The notes beneath the pieces were generated by a model. It saw nothing but the letters and a program-made list of their open reading frames with translations. It was not told the origin of the DNA and did no database searches. Positions 2,657 through 13,314 of a DNA stretch of 13,314 nt are shown in pieces. A program made the position numbers and the translations under genes. Origin of the DNA: an archaeon (lineage in GTDB: Archaea; Iainarchaeota; Iainarchaeia; Iainarchaeales; CSSED10-239); the NCBI GenBank assembly GCA_041677685.1, contig JBAYPN010000020.1, positions 1-13,314 of the forward strand. Direction: 5' to 3'. The stretch's first letter is position 1. Each line of letters starts with the position of its first letter.

Positions 2657-2932
2657 TTATTTATTTTTCACAATAAATTCAACAATTTCTTCAACAGGCT
2701 TATTAGTTGCTGTTGCAATTTCTGTAATTATTGTTTTTAAAAGAGCAGGATTAATATCTTTTCCATTTTTACATAATGGAATTTTATGCCCCTTTCCATC
2801 GGTAAAAACACGATGTTTACTTTGTGCCTTTTTTTCTTCAAACCCTAATTTTTGTAAAGCTCTATTCATTTGTTTATGTGTAAGAATTGGCATTTTCTTA
2901 AAGCAATTAATACTTCCTATTGGTTTTGCCAT
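2657..2932 (-). CDS. hicA: HicA-like (YcfA/HicA family) putative mRNA interferase toxin with a 13-aa N-terminal extension.
   Basis: MPILTHKQMNRALQKLGFEEKKAQSKHRVFTDGKGHKIPLCKNGKDINPALLKTII fits the HicA pattern (k.l.kaLek.GF......GSH..f.......vP.h..kdl..gtlk.Il). A strong SD, AAGGTGA, lies 6 nt upstream of the ATG at 2932. The gene starts 14 nt after the stop of the HD gene. Confidence 0.55.
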   Translation of the reverse strand: MAKPIGSINCFKKMPILTHKQMNRALQKLGFEEKKAQSKHRVFTDGKGHKIPLCKNGKDINPALLKTIITEIATATNKPVEEIVEFIVKNK

Positions 2933-4078: not shown

Positions 4079-5641
4079 TTATCTAATTTCTATTTCTCCA
4101 ACAGTAATTAATTTTTCTATATTATTAATTGTGTTATATTCAGTTTTAATCCAATCATCTGATCTTGCAATTTTTGAAATTCTAAGCTCGCAGATTGCTC
4201 CTGTCAAAGAACTTCCAATTGTAACATTTGTGGTATTACTTAATGCTAAGTTTGAAAATAGTTTTGGGTTATATTTTTGTTCACCATTAACATATAATCT
4301 TCCATAATTATTACTAATTGTAAATGCTATTTGATTTTCTGTATATTCTGTGAAATTTGTGTTGTATTCATTACCTGAAAAATTATTCCCACCTCCAGCA
4401 TACCCACCTTCAGTATCCCCAAAACAAGTGTATTTAAATCTATTACCATTATTCCTATTATCATATTTAAACCAAATTCCTGTGTGTGGGTTAGGAGAAT
4501 CAGGTTGTCCTTTTAAAAAAATAGAAATTAATTTTCCTGTGTTTGTTGAATAATCTAATTCATTAAAATAATTTACTGATGATATTGTTACATTTTCTAA
4601 TGTGTTTAAAGATTCAGAATTGTTAACAACTAAATATTGGTTTTTTGAGGAATCTAAGACAACACAATTTCTATTATTTACTTTTGTAAATACTGCATTG
4701 TTTACATTGTTAACTATATCATTATTATTATTTGTTGAATCAAAAGAATCATTAAAGTGTAATACCATTAAAAAATCATCATCCCAAGTCTGAGTATCAT
4801 TTGTTTCAGTCCCATTCTCATTCCCATAATACATATAGATATTAGTATTTTTATTCCCATCAAGATCACCTGGAATTTTTACAAAAGCAATTAGCTCTCC
4901 ACTTTCAGAGTTATAATCCTCAATTTCTCTTGAAAGCTTTGTAAATCCATCAGCACTTGTAAAAACAACATCACTACCATCACTTTTCCCCTTCTGTTTA
5001 AGGGCAAGAGATGTTAAAGAGATAGGTACAGGGAAGTTAGTTACTGTTCCTGAAACATAATTAGAATCAATTATTAGAAGTTGCCTGTACTCCCAATTAC
5101 TATTATACCAGTTATTTGTTCTTTCTCTTTTTGGAACAATATCAATTTGTATTTTTTCAGTTTGAGAATTATAATCAAAATAAGAAACAGTAATTGTATT
5201 TTTTCCTTGTTTTAAATTAAGATTATTGCAATTTAGATTAATTAGATTATTAGAATTATTTATTTCTTTTTCAAAAAATACTTTTCCAAGTTTCTTATAT
5301 AAAATAATATTATTAACATTCACATTTTGGTCTGTTCTAAAATTAGAACCATAAACTACACTTCCAATTATCTTATTATTTTCACAATCAATTGTAAGCT
5401 CTTCAGGGTTATTAACAATTACCTCTTGTCTTTGAAATCTGTTGTTTGAAACTTCTTGTATTTTTTTGTCAAGACTATCTATTGTTTTTAACATTAATTC
5501 ATAATTGTTCTTTTGTTTATTTTTTTCAATAATGTTTAGAGATCCACTAATAACTATTGCTAAAACAGACAGAGCAAGCAATATATAAAAAATATATGCA
5601 ATTAAGTTAACTACGCCTTTCTTGTTTTTAATCAGATTCAT
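4079..5641 (-). CDS. Prepilin-like surface protein carrying one DUF2341 module and one LamG/ConA-like (Laminin_G_3-type) lectin module (520 aa).
   Basis: The leader is MNLIKNKKG|VVNLIAYIFYILLALSVLAIVISGS. The DUF2341 signature spans aa 178-285: WYNSNWEYRQLLIIDSNYVSGTVTNFPVPI...DGSDVVFTSADGFTKLSREIEDYNSESGELIAFVKIPGDL...NIYMYYGNENG. The LamG-type module spans aa ~290-505 and ends in GAICELRISKIARSDDWIKTEYNT. The gene overlaps its upstream neighbour by 14 nt. Confidence 0.8.
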   Translation of the reverse strand: MNLIKNKKGVVNLIAYIFYILLALSVLAIVISGSLNIIEKNKQKNNYELMLKTIDSLDKKIQEVSNNRFQRQEVIVNNPEELTIDCENNKIIGSVVYGSNFRTDQNVNVNNIILYKKLGKVFFEKEINNSNNLINLNCNNLNLKQGKNTITVSYFDYNSQTEKIQIDIVPKRERTNNWYNSNWEYRQLLIIDSNYVSGTVTNFPVPISLTSLALKQKGKSDGSDVVFTSADGFTKLSREIEDYNSESGELIAFVKIPGDLDGNKNTNIYMYYGNENGTETNDTQTWDDDFLMVLHFNDSFDSTNNNNDIVNNVNNAVFTKVNNRNCVVLDSSKNQYLVVNNSESLNTLENVTISSVNYFNELDYSTNTGKLISIFLKGQPDSPNPHTGIWFKYDNRNNGNRFKYTCFGDTEGGYAGGGNNFSGNEYNTNFTEYTENQIAFTISNNYGRLYVNGEQKYNPKLFSNLALSNTTNVTIGSSLTGAICELRISKIARSDDWIKTEYNTINNIEKLITVGEIEIR

Positions 5642-8141
5642 TTTTCTCTAATTCTCCAGTTTTAAAAAGATAAGCAGAATATTTCTGAGTAAGGTATTCT
5701 GTTTTTAACCAATCATCTGACCTTATGGTGCTTGAGATCTTAAGTTCATCAATCATCCCTTTAAAATATTCAGCTCCACTATAAGCTTTACCAAGCATTA
5801 ACAAGCCATTTGAAATATTATCCTCTCTTGTAACTTCTACTTCTCTACTCTTATGATCGTCTACATATAGTTTAAGAGTCTGTTTATCATATGCCCAACA
5901 AACATAATGATTTTCATGTTTTAAAATATATTCACCATATGTTGTGTGATATCCTGCTGAAGGTAAGCCATTACGTAAATAGACTCCAAAGTTAGGATTT
6001 GTAAAATTTATTACATAATTAGAGCCACTGTTATAAACTACTCTTTTATATTCTTCAAATTCTTTATTTACCCACATACAATAAGTTATTTCTTCAATAA
6101 CATCTTGGCTAATGGAAAGGTAATCATCAGTTCCATCAAATTTAATTCCTCTTCCAATAATTCCATAAACATCTGTGTTTGAATCTATATTAAAATCAAA
6201 ATTATAAAGAAAGCCATTATGTTTATTTTTTGTAGAATCAAAATAACCAAGTCCATTTGTGGTTGGCTTTTCTGAAAAATGTAAAACTGTATTATAATAT
6301 TTGTCCCAAGAATCAGTATCATTAGTTTCATTTGCTTGATTGTTTCCAAAGTATATGTAGATTGAGCTATTTAGATTTGCATAGATTTTTGGGATCTTAA
6401 CATATGCAATTAATTTTTTTCCTACCTCTTCAACTTCTCCAAGTGAGTAAAAGTTATCTGGATCATTTTGATTTTCATATTCAGTTTTTATCCAATTGTT
6501 TGTTTTTGCTTTGCTTGATATTCTAAACTCATCAATATATCCAAAATGTGTGTAATAAAGATTGTTTAGATAACCAAAACCAAGATACAAAGAAGTGTTA
6601 TTCTGTTGTAAATAATCTGACACTCTGTTCTGTTCTCCAGAAAGCACACCATCAACATAAATGTACTCTTTATTTTCTTCTGAGTTATAAACATAGGTTA
6701 TAAGATGCCACTGATCAATATCAAGAACAGGGTTTGTTGTAAAAAAGTTTCCATTTCCATTCTCATATAATATTTTTTTACTTGCTTGAATTAAAACTCT
6801 CCCAACATCATTAGCATTATGTTTATACCAAATCCCTGAATAATAGCTTAAGGTTTCTCCACTCCAGTTAACCCAAGCACTAACACTCAACTGATTCCAA
6901 TTTCCAGCTTGACTAGCATCTCCAAAATCAATATATTCATTTCCATCAAAGTAATTTGCTTTTCCAATCTTTCCAGAAACATCTGTGTTTGAATTATTAC
7001 CTAAGTCAAGATCATTATAAGTCCCATTAAGATTATTTAAAGTAGAGTCTTTATATGCTCCAACAACACCATTACCTCCATCTTGACTTAAATGTTGGAC
7101 AATCTTGTAATCCTCAGTCCACACAAATTTAGAATTTTCAACCCTTTGGTTCTTGTCTCCAAAAAACATATAGATAACTGTGTCTTCATCTTTTAAAAGT
7201 TCAGGAACCTTTACCCAAACATTAAGTTTTCCACTCTCAAAATTATAATCTTCAATTTCTCTTTCTAAAATTGTTAGACCATCAGAAAGTGTAAAGTAAA
7301 TGTCAAGCCCATCTTCTCTTGTATGATTAATAAGGTCACTATTGGTTATTGAGACTAAAACAGCAAAATCATTTAAATTATCATATACTTTGTTAGAGTC
7401 AATTGTAATTTTTTGTTTATAGATTAAATTTTGAGAAAAATAATCAATTTCTCTTTTTAATTTAAAAGTTCCATTGTCCGTAGTAAAGACAATATCCTTT
7501 CCATCTTCTTTTGCAAAATAACCTAAGTCTTTATCAATTATCTCTACAGGAATTGTAAAGTTATTTAAGTCTGCAGATATAAAATTAGAATCTAATAATA
7601 ATCTTTTTCTATATTTCCAATTTTCATCATACCAAGAGACCTCTTCTATTGCTTGTGTACTTATCTTCAATTTATTTTTTTCAAGTTTAGTAATATAAAG
7701 TTCAATTTTTTTATTGTTTATTAGTTCATCTGAAATTATGTTAATGTTAGTATATTCAATTCCAGCAACTAGTTTTTGTTTATCTCTGTAAGTGTATAAA
7801 CCATTCTTTATAATTTCTGTTGTTTCTTTATAAAATTTAGAATTTGTAATTTGGTAGATTTCTATTTTATTTTGATTTGAGTCAATAAGTAAATATAGTT
7901 TATCTAGATCTATGTTTATTTTAGTTGTTGATCCATTTGGTAGTGCCATAACCTCTTTTATCTTTTGATCTAAAGTATTTATATAGTTTTTAGACAACTC
8001 ATGTTTTTGTTTTGCTTGTTGGTTTGAGACACCAGGAATAACACCATTCATAATTAATGCAACTGTTAAACTTATAACTAAGATTACCATTGTATAACCT
8101 AATATCTCAGATGCTCCTTTATTATTTTTTTTTAAGCTCAT
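5628..8141 (-). CDS. Large prepilin-like surface protein with two DUF2341 modules, one nested inside the other, and two LamG/ConA-like lectin modules (837 aa).
   Basis: The leader is MSLKKNNKG|ASEILGYTMVILVISLTVALIMNGV, which resembles the archaeal Pilin_N domain. DUF2341 N-half copies lie at aa 170-236 and 240-299, and C-half copies at aa 300-335 and 575-615. LamG modules at aa ~345-560 and ~617-820 end in FGYIDEFRISSKAKTNNWIKTEYENQ and FKGMIDELKISSTIRSDDWLKTEYLTQ. Confidence 0.8.
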   Translation of the reverse strand: MSLKKNNKGASEILGYTMVILVISLTVALIMNGVIPGVSNQQAKQKHELSKNYINTLDQKIKEVMALPNGSTTKINIDLDKLYLLIDSNQNKIEIYQITNSKFYKETTEIIKNGLYTYRDKQKLVAGIEYTNINIISDELINNKKIELYITKLEKNKLKISTQAIEEVSWYDENWKYRKRLLLDSNFISADLNNFTIPVEIIDKDLGYFAKEDGKDIVFTTDNGTFKLKREIDYFSQNLIYKQKITIDSNKVYDNLNDFAVLVSITNSDLINHTREDGLDIYFTLSDGLTILEREIEDYNFESGKLNVWVKVPELLKDEDTVIYMFFGDKNQRVENSKFVWTEDYKIVQHLSQDGGNGVVGAYKDSTLNNLNGTYNDLDLGNNSNTDVSGKIGKANYFDGNEYIDFGDASQAGNWNQLSVSAWVNWSGETLSYYSGIWYKHNANDVGRVLIQASKKILYENGNGNFFTTNPVLDIDQWHLITYVYNSEENKEYIYVDGVLSGEQNRVSDYLQQNNTSLYLGFGYLNNLYYTHFGYIDEFRISSKAKTNNWIKTEYENQNDPDNFYSLGEVEEVGKKLIAYVKIPKIYANLNSSIYIYFGNNQANETNDTDSWDKYYNTVLHFSEKPTTNGLGYFDSTKNKHNGFLYNFDFNIDSNTDVYGIIGRGIKFDGTDDYLSISQDVIEEITYCMWVNKEFEEYKRVVYNSGSNYVINFTNPNFGVYLRNGLPSAGYHTTYGEYILKHENHYVCWAYDKQTLKLYVDDHKSREVEVTREDNISNGLLMLGKAYSGAEYFKGMIDELKISSTIRSDDWLKTEYLTQKYSAYLFKTGELEKNESD

Positions 8142-9719: not shown

Positions 9720-10193
9720 ATGAAAAGATATACAATTTGGGATGAAATGAGAAGAATGCAAAGGGATATGGATTCTTTATTTGAAGACTTTGTATATTCT
9801 AAAAACCCTTATCTTCTTGTAGATTCTAAGAACAAAAATGAACTAGAAACAAAAGAAAACTATAGAGAACCAGTATGTAACATAGAAGAAGATAAAGAAA
9901 ACTATAATTTTTCCTTAGAGATTCCTGGATCTAAAAAAGAGGATATTAAGATAAATATAAATGATAATATCTTAGAGATAGAAGTAGAGCATAAAAAGGA
10001 AGAAAAAAAGGATGATGAAAAGAAAGGATCTTATAGTTATTCAAGAAGCTATTCTGGATTTTACAGATCTTTTTCTCTTCCAAGAAACATTGATAAGGAC
10101 AATGTAGATGCAGAGTATAAAGATGGTGTTTTAAAAATAAAGATTCCAAAAAAAGAAATCTCTTCTTCTCAGAAGCAAATTGAGGTTAAGTGA
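9720..10193 (+). CDS. hsp20: Small heat shock protein, Hsp20/alpha-crystallin family.
   Basis: The alpha-crystallin domain pattern is present: PVCNIEEDKENYNFSLEIPGSKKEDIKININDNILEIEVEHKKE......GFYRSFSLPRNIDKDNVDAEYKDGVLKIKIPKKE. The SD AAGAGGTGA (9708-9716) lies 3 nt before the ATG. A T7 run (10194-10200) directly follows the stop. Confidence 0.9.
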   Translation: MKRYTIWDEMRRMQRDMDSLFEDFVYSKNPYLLVDSKNKNELETKENYREPVCNIEEDKENYNFSLEIPGSKKEDIKININDNILEIEVEHKKEEKKDDEKKGSYSYSRSYSGFYRSFSLPRNIDKDNVDAEYKDGVLKIKIPKKEISSSQKQIEVK

Positions 10194-11498: not shown

Positions 11499-11570
11499 GC
11501 TTCTGTGGCTCAGTGGTAGAGCGCAACCTTGGTAAGGTTGAGGTCGCGGGTTCAATTCCCGCCAGAAGCT
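11499..11570 (+). tRNA. tRNA-Thr (anticodon GGU), discriminator U73, no encoded CCA.
   Basis: Folded by hand. The acceptor is GCUUCUG/CAGAAGC, followed by UG. The D arm is GCUC-AGUGGUA-GAGC. The anticodon arm is CAACC-UUGGUAA-GGUUG, with the anticodon at 11531-11533. The variable loop is AGGUC. The T arm is GCGGG-UUCAAUU-CCCGC. The discriminator U is at 11570. Confidence 0.92.
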
Positions 11571-12376
11571 TGTCAAACTATTTCTCTTGATGCCTTTAAA
11601 ATAAAGGTTTTAGAAGAAAATCACTCTAAAGGATACTATAAGTCTCTTGCTAAATTAAACAGCATCTTTAGTAAAAATATATATAAAAACCATCAAGAAC
11701 TGCTTGAAGATTATAAAAAAAACATAGATTTGGTTAATAATACTCAAAGTAGTAGAAAAATTGTGTCAAAGTTTTTAAATTACCTTAAAGATGAAGGATT
11801 CTCTCAAGAAAACATAGTTTCTTGTAAAAAACTATTAAAAAAGGATATAAATTTTTCAAATGACACTTATGTTCCAACAGATCAAGAAATAAAAGTTACT
11901 TTATCTAAGCTAAGAGAAGATTTAAAGCCATTATATCTTCTTTTCTTATTTAGTGGAATAAGGGTGTCAGAAGGCATATATACCTTTTAAACAACTTAAA
12001 TAATTTAAAGATACAGTGTAAAGATAATTACTGCAAGATACACCTAGATTACAATAGACACAATAAACGCTCCTTTTTTTGTTATATACCTCACTTTATT
12101 TACACACAGATAGGTGTCCAGAAAACAGAACTAAACAATATTCGTATATTTATTAAAAGAAATAAGCTTATTCCTTTAAAGTACTGCAGAAAATGGTTTT
12201 ACACTAAATGTATTGAGTTAGGTATACCAGAGTCTATTGCTGATTTTTATGAAGGAAGGGTTGCAACTTCTGTTGGTTCTAACCATTATCTTTCAAGACA
12301 GGCATTGGCTGATAAGAACTACATTAAATTATTAGATTTCTTTAATAATTTTTATAATGAGATAAAGGAGGTATAA
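11520..12376 (+). pseudogene. Tyrosine recombinase/integrase (archaeal SSV-like type) that lacks an ATG start, is open through the 3' half of tRNA-Thr, and is broken by a 1-nt frameshift near 11976-11990.
   Basis: Frame A (11520..11990) encodes ...KFLNYLKDEGFSQENIV...YVPTDQEIKVTLSKL...PLYLLFLFSGIRVSEGIYTF*, with the box I Arg in SGIRVSE. A frame shifted by -1 is open from 11954 to the TAA at 12374-12376. It encodes ...IYLLNNL...CKIHLDYNRHNKRSFFCYIP...LKYCRKWFYTKCIELGIPESIADFYEGRVATSVGSNHYLSRQ..., which carries the box II-like R, a GR, and the catalytic-type HY. Confidence 0.7.
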
Positions 12377-12379
12377 AGT

Positions 12380-12499
12380 ATGATAGATAAAAAAACTATT
12401 GAAAGTTTTAAGAAAACAGACCCTGAGATTTTAAAAAGACTTCCAAAGTGGCAACAGAAGTTGCATAAGATAATTTTGGAATTAAATAAAAATAGATAA
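12380..12499 (+). CDS. Small hypothetical protein (39 aa: MIDKKTIESFKKTDPEILKRLPKWQQKLHKIILELNKNR).
   Basis: It is not in the ORF track because it is too short. A very good SD, AGGAGGT (12366-12372), lies 7 nt before the ATG at 12380, directly after the integrase stop. The TAA is at 12497-12499. Confidence 0.45.
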   Translation: MIDKKTIESFKKTDPEILKRLPKWQQKLHKIILELNKNR

Positions 12500-12540
12500 A
12501 TTAGTTTGTTTTTTTATATTTTTCTACATATAATTATAAT

Positions 12541-13176
12541 ATGGATAAATTATTAAAAAAAGAAATAATTATTATTCCTTGGTTTCATAACTCTAAATCT
12601 ATTATTCATAAAATTATATTATCTGAATTAAATAAAATAAATTTAAAAGTATTATTTATTGAAGGGAGTTCAGATAAAAAATTATTATCAACTGTACTTA
12701 ACACTAAAGATTTTTATATTAATTATTCTGAGCCTCAAATAAATATGCTTGAAGCAAGTTATCAATTATTTTGTTTAAAAATAAATCATAAAATTCCTTT
12801 AGATTCTTTTGAATTACATAAAAAATGTGAATATATAAAAAAAGAATTTAGTACAAATATAACTATTGAAAATTTTAATAAATTAAGAAATGTTTCTTTA
12901 GAACGTGTAAAAAAATGGATTGATGTAATTGAAAAAAATAATCATTTTAAAAAATTGTTTGCTATTGTAGGTATGAGTCATTGTATAGATTTTAAACATG
13001 AATTAGAAAAAAAAGGTTATAAAGTAGAAATTCTAAATTATATATTTGGCAGTCTTAAACAAAAGGTTGAAGATTATACTACTATTTGGGATGAATTTTG
13101 GAACTTAGAAAATATTAAAGATATTAATCAAAAATGGTTTTTTTTAGATTCTTTTTCTTTTGAAAATAATGATTAA
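12541..13176 (+). CDS. Hypothetical protein (211 aa), possibly of the Tiki/TraB/PrgY/GumN-like superfamily.
   Basis: The N-terminal IIIIPWFHNSKSIIHKI...LKVLFIEG and C-terminal LFAIVGMSHCIDFKHELEKKGYKVE resemble the paired motifs of TraB-like proteins (llGT.H.s......i.......v.vE and vvvGagH..g....L...Gy.v). The match is by eye only. Confidence 0.5.
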   Translation: MDKLLKKEIIIIPWFHNSKSIIHKIILSELNKINLKVLFIEGSSDKKLLSTVLNTKDFYINYSEPQINMLEASYQLFCLKINHKIPLDSFELHKKCEYIKKEFSTNITIENFNKLRNVSLERVKKWIDVIEKNNHFKKLFAIVGMSHCIDFKHELEKKGYKVEILNYIFGSLKQKVEDYTTIWDEFWNLENIKDINQKWFFLDSFSFENND

Positions 13177-13258
13177 AATATGGTGATTTTGTAAAATAAA
13201 GCAATTTATTTAAATACAATTACTTACTATATAATATATAGGAATTAAGTGATTTATA

Positions 13259-13314
13259 ATGTATGAACAAATATTTAGAAATATAGATAATGTCTTAAGA
13301 CAAGATTCAGGATG
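13259..13314 (+). CDS. 5' end (18 codons) of a gene truncated by the window edge. It is possibly an N6-adenine DNA methyltransferase of a restriction-modification system.
   Basis: MYEQIFRNIDNVLRQDSG resembles the conserved N-terminal helix of HsdM/type IIG methylases (..iw...d.LR.d.g...). This is very short and therefore weak evidence. Confidence 0.3.
   Translation, partial: MYEQIFRNIDNVLRQDSG

What the first reader, a model, noticed from the sequence alone, without database searches (positions are those of the whole stretch)
11499..12376. Integrase ORF with no ATG, open through the 3' half of tRNA-Thr: the signature of an SSV-type integrase partitioned by its own integration
Seen in sequence: the frame encoding the integrase is open from 11520, inside the tRNA-Thr D-stem. 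It runs through the anticodon loop, T arm and acceptor end, translated as ...VRLRSRVQFPPEA, and straight into integrase sequence. This frame contains no Met codon anywhere in its ~150 aa; the start in the ORF track is a TTG in the anticodon loop. From the tRNA to the stop at 12376 there are about 280 codons. Established knowledge: SSV-type (type I) archaeal integrases carry attP inside the int gene. Integration into a tRNA therefore splits int into an N-terminal piece at one end of the provirus and a larger C-terminal piece abutting the att copy at the other end. The att core equals the 3' portion of the tRNA. For SSV1 the split is roughly 65 + 270 aa. Inference: 11529-11570 is attL, this ORF is int(C), and the element extends rightward beyond the window to an int(N)-attR junction. 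This also supports an archaeal origin of the contig.
Basis: partly seen in the sequence, partly recalled or inferred. Interest (0 to 1): 0.6.

Follow-up and report, generated by a model that had tools for sequence, protein, structure and literature searches.

The report
Split integrase at a tRNA-Thr site
This is the left end of a mobile DNA island in a tiny DPANN archaeon: its SSV-virus-type integrase gene was cut in two by its own insertion into a tRNA-Thr gene, a known mechanism seen here in an unusual host, and this copy is also broken by a 2-base insertion.

Summary
tRNA-Thr(GGT) lies at 11499-11570. An ATG-less frame opens at 11520, reads the tRNA 3' part as LVRLRSRVQFPPEA and runs into integrase sequence.

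It stops that frame at 11988-11990 and puts the catalytic residues in another frame, ending at 12376.

The repaired protein matches only Pfam PF16795 (E 1.6e-33). Its nearest solved relative is the SSV1 integrase.

Host DNA is 99.95-100% identical to six sister contigs up to 11523. Divergence begins inside the tRNA. Two sisters reach a right end:
- L004 has a perfect 48-bp repeat of the tRNA 3' part 9.1 kb downstream.
- L053 has the repeat 15.7 kb downstream.
- In both, an ATG-started ORF reads in frame into that repeat.

Joined, the halves are collinear with an intact 344-aa integrase on 4.77-kb circular plasmids. That gene holds a 44-nt tRNA-Ala segment inside it. An integrated copy and empty sites also exist.

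The window's own right end lies off the contig, and this copy is probably immobile. It is a new member of a known kind, in mesophile-like, AT-rich Iainarchaeota.

The parts
11499..11570 (+). tRNA-Thr(GGT) gene. The 5' part is host DNA. The 3' part, T-arm GCGGG-TTCAATT-CCCGC, is probably donated by the integrated element.
   Evidence: ARAGORN. The T-arm differs with compensatory changes among contigs whose host flank is 99.95-100% identical.
11524..11571 (+). attL core. It runs from the anticodon stem to one base past the discriminator and corresponds to the 48-bp direct repeat of L004.
   Evidence: Perfect 48-bp repeat at L004 9987-10034 and 19112-19159. L053 attL is 4709-4754 and attR is 20384-20429. 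Host identity ends at 11523.
11520..11990 (+). int(C) segment 1. It has no ATG and is open from inside the tRNA. It encodes the core-binding region and catalytic Arg I (SGIRVSE), and ends at a premature TAA at 11988-11990.
   Evidence: Translation; Pfam PF16795 on the repaired protein; alignment A2.
11976..11981 (+). 2-bp (TA) insertion within catatatacc that shifts the integrase frame.
   Evidence: Alignment with L004, L007, L015 and L006, which lack it. Present only in the window and L001/L049.
11982..12376 (+). int(C) segment 2 in the shifted frame. It holds catalytic K, KYCRK (YxxR), GR and HY (the Tyr nucleophile). The stop is at 12374-12376.
   Evidence: Translation; alignment to SSV1 Int; invariant columns.
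12380..12499 (+). 39-aa ORF immediately after int. A 39-41-aa ORF sits in the same position in L053 and L015. Function unknown.
   Evidence: Only a weak PHROG hit.
12541..13176 (+). 211-aa cargo ORF with no family match. It is specific to this variant of the island.
   Evidence: Absent from L004, L053, L007 and L015.
13260..13314 (+). Start of a type I restriction-modification methylase (HsdM) gene. This is island cargo and runs off the window.
   Evidence: The longer copy in L001 hits HsdM_N and N6_Mtase. The homologous L053 island continues with HsdS and HsdR.

Best explanation
Positions 11524-11571 are the attL junction of an integrated mobile island carrying an SSV-type (type I, 'suicidal') tyrosine integrase. 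The island sits in the tRNA-Thr(GGT) gene of an Iainarchaeota (DPANN) archaeon.

Mechanism. Steps 1 and 2 are established for the family and shown here in relatives. Steps 3 and 4 are inferred.

1. In the free circular element the int gene contains attP, a 44-48-nt copy of the 3' part of a tRNA. It lies between an N-terminal domain of about 60 aa, possibly ribbon-helix-helix-like, and the core-binding plus catalytic domains.

2. Recombination with the tRNA gene splits int. The promoter-less, ATG-less int(C) is left abutting a regenerated tRNA at attL. The ATG-bearing int(N) is left reading into the att copy at attR.

3. The T-arm of the window's tRNA is the element's copy, so the tRNA is a host/element chimera that keeps its base pairing.

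4. Excision would need an intact integrase supplied in trans.

In this window int(C) also carries a 2-bp insertion that separates catalytic Arg I from K, YxxR and Tyr. A reconstituted gene would therefore be dead, and this copy is most likely an immobilised relic. Its cargo is a 39-aa ORF, a 211-aa ORF and a type I restriction-modification system. By analogy with sister contigs, int(N)-attR should lie roughly 9-16 kb to the right.
For: Family membership:
- The repaired protein hits PF16795 only, E 1.6e-33.
- The best PDB sequence hits are the SSV1 Int catalytic domain at E about 3e-14, with R, KYxRK and HY aligned.
- The AF2 model of the intact relative P0064 has the SSV1 Int structures as its top four fold hits, TM 0.75-0.78.

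Boundary of the variable region:
- Host DNA is 99.95-100% identical to L004, L046, L047, L048, L049 and L007 up to 11523.
- Of the 10 window-versus-L001 mismatches, 9 cluster at 11549-11849, starting in the T-arm.

Right ends in sister contigs:
- L004 has a perfect 48-bp att repeat 9,125 bp apart, with an ATG ORF reading in frame into attR.
- L053 has attL and attR 15,675 bp apart with the same int(N).
- L008 shows another int(N)-attR junction in a different host.

The two halves are one gene:
- Joined int(N) + att + int(C) is collinear end to end with intact P0064: 37% identity overall, and 43% over the N-terminal 44 aa at E 1e-9.

Intact and integrated forms in a related clade:
- Circular plasmids L041 and L042 have terminal overlaps of 127 and 119 nt, equal to the assembly k values in the contig names.
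- Their int ORF contains a 44-nt exact tRNA-Ala segment.
- L024 is the integrated form, starting exactly at att.

Mobility and recurrence:
- The same island, 97% identical, sits at tRNA-Thr in a host whose flank is only 75% identical. Empty sites L013 and L011 exist.
- In 5 of 5 DPANN-type genome loci a tRNA abuts int.

Literature:
- PF16795 integrases are the suicidal class and their att sites are 40-50 bp (PMC8371274).
Against: - The window's own right end is not available, so int(N)-attR is inferred from sister contigs, not seen.
- No circular (attP) form of the tRNA-Thr-specific element was found in metagenome or viral collections.
- The islands in L004 and L053 are composite, with an inner int(N) and a truncated att. 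What moved, and when, is therefore not simple.
- Some family members (P0025 type) show no tRNA-like segment in the 5' part of the gene, so partitioning is not universal in PF16795.
- No activity has been tested.
Confidence: 0.9

Rival explanations
1. A conventional, non-partitioning (type II, pNOB8- or XerA-like) integrase gene sits next to its tRNA target. It is translated from a non-ATG start at or after the tRNA.
For: A TTG exists at 11529. Gene callers annotate homologues as starting with M inside the tRNA, for example P0001 and P0003.
Against: - The only in-frame NTG before codon ~68 lies in the anticodon loop of a tRNA gene.
- The protein hits PF16795, not PF00589.
- The missing N-terminal ~60 aa is found as a separate ATG ORF at attR in L004, L053 and L008. 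It is homologous to the N-terminus of intact plasmid integrases.
Confidence: 0.03
2. A fixed relic. The region once was such an element but is now a permanently resident, decaying defence island. Cargo is exchanged by homologous recombination among strains rather than by site-specific integration or excision. This differs from the best explanation only on present-day mobility.
For: - A frameshift in int(C) is present in the window and L001/L049.
- int(C) is truncated or fused in L006 and P0002.
- int(N) is degenerate in L012.
- An inner int(N) with a truncated att occurs in L004, L053 and L006.
- Every contig of this host species found has the site occupied.
- The pattern is mosaic: the window has the L053-type T-arm but an L004-type int(C).
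Against: - int(C) is intact in L004, L007, L015 and L053.
- The island occurs at 97% identity in a host with a 75% identical flank, and empty sites exist. This implies fairly recent site-specific transfer of at least some variants.
Confidence: 0.6
3. Assembly artefact. A chimeric contig joins a tRNA to an unrelated integrase fragment, and the 2-bp insertion is an assembly error.
For: Contigs often break at this locus: L002, L003 and the contig ends in L008, L009 and L020.
Against: The same tRNA-int junction is found in more than ten independent assemblies from different sources. The 2-bp insertion is present in two assemblies that differ at 10 other positions.
Confidence: 0.02

Closest known systems
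SSV1/SSV2 fusellovirus integrases (type I, SSV-type; Sulfolobales)
   Same: - Same Pfam family, PF16795, and the nearest solved structures by sequence.
- The relative P0064 also has them as its best fold matches.
- Size of about 340 aa against 335 aa for SSV1 (the SSV1 figure is from memory).
- attP of 44-48 bp lies inside the gene after roughly 60 codons and equals the 3' part of a tRNA.
- Integration yields int(N) at attR and int(C) abutting the tRNA at attL (PMC8371274).
   Different: - The host is an AT-rich (~25% GC) Iainarchaeota (DPANN) archaeon rather than a hyperthermophilic crenarchaeon.
- The carrier is not a fusellovirus but a plasmid-like or defence island. No virion genes were recognised, and cargo includes type I R-M, M78/DUF4411 and a prim-pol-like gene.
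- The N-terminal domain may be ribbon-helix-helix-like: a weak CcdA hit at E 5e-4 (below the Pfam cut-off) and two predicted helices.
- Identity to SSV1 Int is only about 25% in the catalytic domain.
pTN3 / pT26-2 family suicidal integrases of Thermococcales, Methanococcales and Archaeoglobales (Badel et al. 2020, PMC7253208)
   Same: - Plasmid-borne PF16795 integrases that target the 3' ends of various tRNA genes.
- The att-encoded peptide is a tolerant segment that can be read in alternate frames. Here LVRLRSRV... and VERNLGKVEVAGSIPARSL are both read from the same tRNA-Thr att.
- Hybrid int(N)/int(C) combinations and mosaicism occur.
   Different: - A different sequence clade and a different host phylum.
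- Here a relic of tandem integration (an inner int(N) plus a truncated att) is preserved. That paper says tandem integration had not been observed for suicidal elements.
- No biochemical data exist here.
pNOB8-type (type II) archaeal integrases and XerA
   Same: Tyrosine recombinase fold. Often tRNA-targeting.
   Different: Those genes stay intact on integration, with att outside the ORF, and they carry PF00589-type domains. Here the gene lacks its 5' end at attL and hits PF16795 only. XerA ranks well below SSV1 Int in the fold search.

Membership tests
SSV-type (type I, 'suicidal') archaeal tyrosine integrases, Pfam PF16795 | The catalytic domain matches the Phage_integr_3 (PF16795) profile above the curated cut-off. 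| tested here: met
   116.3 bits against a cut-off of 27, E 1.6e-33, profile positions 1-160 of 161, on the frame-repaired protein. All 75 homologues carry PF16795.
SSV-type (type I, 'suicidal') archaeal tyrosine integrases, Pfam PF16795 | Catalytic residues are present: Arg I, Lys, (Y/H)xxR and the Tyr nucleophile. | tested here: met
   SGIRVSE, K, KYCRK, GR and HY are invariant in alignment A2 and align with SSV1 Int. In the window itself they are split between two frames by the 2-bp insertion.
SSV-type (type I, 'suicidal') archaeal tyrosine integrases, Pfam PF16795 | attP lies inside the int ORF of the free element. | tested here: inconclusive
   Met for a related clade: circular plasmids L041 and L042 have a 44-nt tRNA-Ala segment inside the 344-aa ORF. 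For the tRNA-Thr lineage it is only inferred, from the in-frame join of int(N) and int(C) in L004 and L053. No circular form was found.
SSV-type (type I, 'suicidal') archaeal tyrosine integrases, Pfam PF16795 | The integrated form has int(C) without a start abutting att/tRNA at one end, and int(N) with a start reading into a direct att repeat at the other end. | tested here: met
   The left half is seen in the window. Both halves are seen in same-species contigs L004 (48-bp perfect repeat, 9.1 kb apart) and L053 (15.7 kb apart). The window's own right end lies off the contig.
SSV-type (type I, 'suicidal') archaeal tyrosine integrases, Pfam PF16795 | The att core is about 40-50 bp and equals the 3' part of a tRNA gene. 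| tested here: met
   48 bp for tRNA-Thr, from the anticodon stem to the discriminator plus one base. 44 bp for tRNA-Ala. The literature range is 40-50 bp (PMC8371274).
SSV-type (type I, 'suicidal') archaeal tyrosine integrases, Pfam PF16795 | Site-specific integration and excision activity of the full-length protein. | not testable with these tools
   Needs biochemistry or read-level detection of attP and attB junctions.
pNOB8-type (type II) / XerA-like non-partitioning integrases | An intact int gene with its own start codon after integration, with att outside the ORF. | tested here: not met
   There is no ATG in the frame, and the only early NTG is in the anticodon loop. The N-terminal ~60 aa is encoded separately at attR in sister loci.
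pNOB8-type (type II) / XerA-like non-partitioning integrases | A Phage_integrase (PF00589)-type catalytic domain. | tested here: not met
   No PF00589 hit at E <= 0.01. XerA ranks below SSV1 Int in the fold search.

The most novel reading that the evidence does not exclude
Suicidal (self-splitting) integrases are not a hyperthermophile speciality. They are the working integration module of small plasmids and defence islands in mesophile-like, AT-rich DPANN archaea (Iainarchaeota).

At the tRNA-Thr hotspot, successive integrations leave tandem relics. The leftover int(C), int(N) and M78/DUF4411 segments would then serve as homology anchors through which strains swap defence cargo and replace the tRNA's T-arm. 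Cargo seen includes type I R-M, prim-pol, CARF-like and Schlafen-like genes.

This would undercut the thermostability-based explanation for why such integrases persist.
Probability: 0.4. Interest if true: 0.55.

Novelty: new member of a known kind. Interest (0 to 1): 0.4.

Why it matters
It is a clean, comparatively verified example of a self-partitioning integrase outside the hyperthermophilic Sulfolobales and Thermococcales, where the phenomenon was defined. The 2021 review (PMC8371274) attributes the system to hyperthermophiles and does not mention DPANN.

The data supply most stages of the life cycle from public sequence:
- a free circular plasmid;
- integrated forms;
- empty sites;
- tandem relics;
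- decaying copies.

The locus also marks a strain-variable defence-island hotspot in a poorly known archaeal phylum. For annotation, it shows that 'integrase' genes called with starts inside tRNA genes are int(C) fragments. It also shows that the tRNA 3' half can be element-derived.

Tried and rejected
- I looked for a second att copy inside the window. There is none: one match only, and the contig ends 1.7 kb after int.

- I tried to extend the window through exact-protein look-ups. The 13,391-bp contig (L001/L049) first looked like the window's own contig. It differs at 10 positions, including the T-arm. No longer contig with the window's exact sequence was found.

- I scanned IMG/VR for the att pattern and for relatives of the reconstituted integrase. 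Nothing was found, so there is no support for a virus and no circular form of the tRNA-Thr element.

- I considered a non-ATG start after the tRNA. Rejected, as set out under the first rival explanation.

- I considered assembly error for the 2-bp insertion. Rejected, because two assemblies that otherwise differ both share it.

- I checked whether the longer homologues (P0025 type, 314-335 aa) are intact forms with an embedded tRNA att. Their first 300 nt are uniformly AT-rich with no tRNA-like segment and no repeat in the locus. This was left unresolved.

- Literature searches for SSV-type or suicidal integrases in DPANN or Iainarchaeota found no description.

Full report
**Observation**

ARAGORN places tRNA-Thr(GGT) at 11499-11570 on the + strand. 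In the frame of 11499 a TAG lies at 11517-11519. From 11520 the frame is open and reads SATLVRLRSRVQFPPEA across the anticodon loop, T-arm and acceptor end, then ACQTISLDAFKIKVL.... The mechanical ORF starts at TTG 11529, which overlaps the anticodon. The frame contains no Met.

The rest of the integrase, including the catalytic Lys, KYCRK, GR and HY, is in another frame that ends at 12374-12376. Alignment with five related contigs shows a 2-bp TA insertion in catatatacc (11975-11984). It is shared only by the window and L001/L049. Those two assemblies differ at 10 other sites, so the insertion is a real mutation rather than an assembly error.

**What the protein is**

With the two bases removed, the 268-aa product hits only Pfam PF16795 (Phage_integr_3) at 116 bits, E 1.6e-33, over the full profile. 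Its best matches among solved structures are the SSV1 integrase catalytic domain (3VCF, 4DKS, 3UXU) at E about 3e-14, with the Arg, KYxRK and HY motifs aligned. In an alignment of 26 family members, R208, K242, Y281, R283, R306, H315 and Y316 are invariant.

An AlphaFold model of the intact relative P0064 has mean pLDDT 83. Its top four fold matches are the SSV1 integrase structures (TM 0.75-0.78), ahead of XerA and lambda Int. The review PMC8371274 states that the SSV, pTN3-like and pT26-2-like suicidal integrases are the PF16795 families, and that their att sites span 40-50 bp.

**Where the mobile DNA begins**

Six other contigs carry the same host genes: AsnRS/AspRS-type synthetase, two large Laminin_G_3 proteins, tRNA-His, HSP20 and others. 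They are 99.95-100% identical to the window up to position 11523.

From the T-arm onward they differ:
- There are three T-arm variants, each with compensatory stem changes.
- Integrase identity ranges from 82 to 99%.
- The cargo is unrelated between contigs.

Between the window and L001, 9 of the 10 mismatches fall at 11549-11849. The boundary of the variable region therefore lies inside the tRNA, at the start of the att core.

**The right end, seen in sister contigs**

L004 comes from a Candidatus 'ainarchaeum' (Iainarchaeota) MAG, GCA_028708135.1. It has a perfect 48-bp direct repeat at 9987-10034 and 19112-19159: CAACCTTGGTAAGG...CCAGAAGCTT, running from the anticodon stem to one base past the discriminator. 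Shuffles expect no second copy. Immediately upstream of the second copy, an ATG-started ORF (18928-19221) reads MARPKKLEKNKK...DPNLSTLVRLRSRVRLSPEA into the repeat. This is the same frame as int(C) at the tRNA.

L053 is a 97-kb contig of the same host species. Its attL T-arm is identical to the window's. The same int(N)-attR junction lies 15,675 bp downstream. L008 and L009 show a further int(N)-attR junction in another host, with ...STLVRLRSRVQFSPEA.

Joining L004 int(N), att and int(C) gives a 340-aa protein. It is collinear end to end with the intact 344-aa integrase P0064: 37% identity overall, and 43% over the first 44 residues at E 1e-9.

**The free form, shown in a related clade**

P0064 is encoded on contigs L041 (4,897 bp) and L042 (4,895 bp) from different samples. 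Their ends overlap by 127 and 119 nt, equal to the assembly k values in the contig names. The two contigs are circular permutations of each other, so they are circular molecules of about 4.77 kb. They also carry a D5_N/DUF5906 primase-helicase.

Inside the int ORF lies a 44-nt exact copy of positions 32-75 of a tRNA-Ala(CGC). L024 has that tRNA-Ala followed by int(C) at 95.7% identity, and the similarity starts exactly at att. In the P0064 model the att-encoded residues (about 46-69) form a low-confidence linker. It sits between two N-terminal helices and the core domains. The helices fit a weak CcdA/ribbon-helix-helix hit. This matches the report of Badel et al. 2020 (PMC7253208) that the att-encoded segment tolerates change.

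**Mobility**

The L004-type island occurs at 97% identity next to tRNA-Thr in L006, whose host flank is only 75% identical to the window's. L013 (98.3% identical upstream of L006) and L011 (99.4%) have the tRNA followed by unrelated DNA, so they are empty or differently occupied sites.

In the GTDB genome scan all 23 hits are archaeal: Iainarchaeum/'ainarchaeum', Bathyarchaeia and a few others. In all five DPANN-type loci with upstream DNA, a tRNA (Thr three times, Met, Ala) abuts the integrase on the same strand.

**State of this copy**

The frameshift separates Arg I from the other catalytic residues, so a reconstituted gene would be inactive. Decay is common in the family:
- int(C) is truncated in L006.
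- int is fused to a prim-pol fragment in P0002.
- int(N) is degenerate in L012.

The islands in L004 and L053 are composite. A second int(N) copy is followed by only the first 13-19 nt of att, and then by methyltransferase and redox genes, before the outer int(N)-attR. I read this as a relic of tandem integration, stabilised by deletion of the inner att 3' part and the inner int(C).

The window's cargo (39-aa ORF, 211-aa ORF, HsdM) is a variant of the L053 cargo (39 aa, M16 peptidase, 419 aa, HsdMSR). I therefore expect the window's island to continue for 10-20 kb to an int(N)-attR junction. That is inference.

**Comparison and novelty**

The mechanism is the known SSV-type self-partitioning integration. 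The distinctive points are these:
- The host is a ~25% GC DPANN phylum. The literature I could search does not describe such integrases there, and the review attributes the system to hyperthermophiles.
- The carriers are small plasmids and defence-type islands rather than fuselloviruses.
- A tandem-integration relic is preserved.
- The T-arm replacement is clearly visible.

I rate it a new member of a known kind, of moderate interest.

**Limits**

- No circular form of the tRNA-Thr element was found.
- There are no read-level data and no biochemistry.
- The sample temperature and environment were not verified.
- The taxonomy rests on MAG labels.

Noticed in passing
window 11544-11564 (T-arm); L004 10007-10027 and 19132-19152; L053 4729-4749 and 20404-20424: Within one host species (flank 99.95-100% identical) the tRNA-Thr T-arm at attL has three variants with compensatory stem changes: GCGGG/CCCGC with loop TTCAATT, the same stem with loop TTCGACT, and GCGAG/CTCGC. 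attR in both L004 and L053 carries GCGAG/CTCGC. This suggests that GCGAG/CTCGC is the host-native arm, that the attL arm is donated by the incoming element, and that crossover occurs in the first 25 nt of att.
   Followed up: partly
L004 14133-14348; L053 15406-15621; L006 (tRNA orientation) about 5620-5870: A second int(N) copy, 90% identical to the outer one, is followed by only the first 13-19 nt of att and then by unrelated genes (methyltransferases, SpoU, Pyr_redox, flavoprotein/aldolase). It looks like a relic of tandem integration with the inner att 3' part and inner int(C) deleted. Badel et al. 2020 state that tandem integration had not been observed for suicidal elements.
   Followed up: partly
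window 12380-13314; L004 10842-14036; L053 5567-15309; L007 1077-5448: Cargo between int(C) and the M78 peptidase/DUF4411 pair is swapped among strains. L004 has a prim-pol-like 445-aa protein. L053 has a type I R-M system with an M16 peptidase. The window has a 211-aa unknown ORF plus HsdM. L007 has CARF-like/HFX_2341_N, M16 and Schlafen-AlbA_2/HATPase_c_4 genes. This is a strain-variable defence-type hotspot.
   Followed up: partly
L041 and L042 (whole contigs); L045: Circular plasmids of about 4.77 kb carry a D5_N/DUF5906 primase-helicase, an intact 344-aa PF16795 integrase with a tRNA-Ala att inside the ORF, and a few small ORFs. They were recovered from several independent samples. The integrated form (L024) is binned as Methanosarcinales, which may be a mis-binning.
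   Followed up: partly
P0020, P0028, L014 1953-2024, L016: Another integrase subclade uses the same tRNA-Thr att but reads it in a different frame (VERNLGKVEVAGSIPARSL instead of LVRLRSRVQFPPEA). This parallels the alternate-frame att reading reported for pT26-2-type integrases.
   Followed up: no
L055 10001-10978 (P0025); also P0014, P0023, P0036, P0038, P0047, P0049: These PF16795 integrases of 314-335 aa have a different N-terminal extension (...IVIVNNIY.N...). The first 300 nt of the P0025 gene are uniformly AT-rich with no tRNA-like segment. They lie next to large unknown proteins (1023 aa, 548 aa). They may use a non-tRNA att or may not partition. The C-terminal 40 aa of P0014 is identical to that of the L004 integrase, which suggests recombination between subclades.
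   Followed up: partly
window 2657-2932 (-): A HicA-toxin-like 91-aa ORF lies in the host flank.
   Followed up: no
L004 19242-19684: A 69-aa ORF plus a 73-aa HicA-like ORF lie just right of attR in L004.
   Followed up: no
window 4079-8141 (-): Two adjacent large proteins (520 and 837 aa) with DUF2341 and Laminin_G_3 domains, probably surface proteins, lie in the conserved host flank. They contain an internal repeat at about 74% identity (window 6127-6239 against 6937-7049).
   Followed up: no
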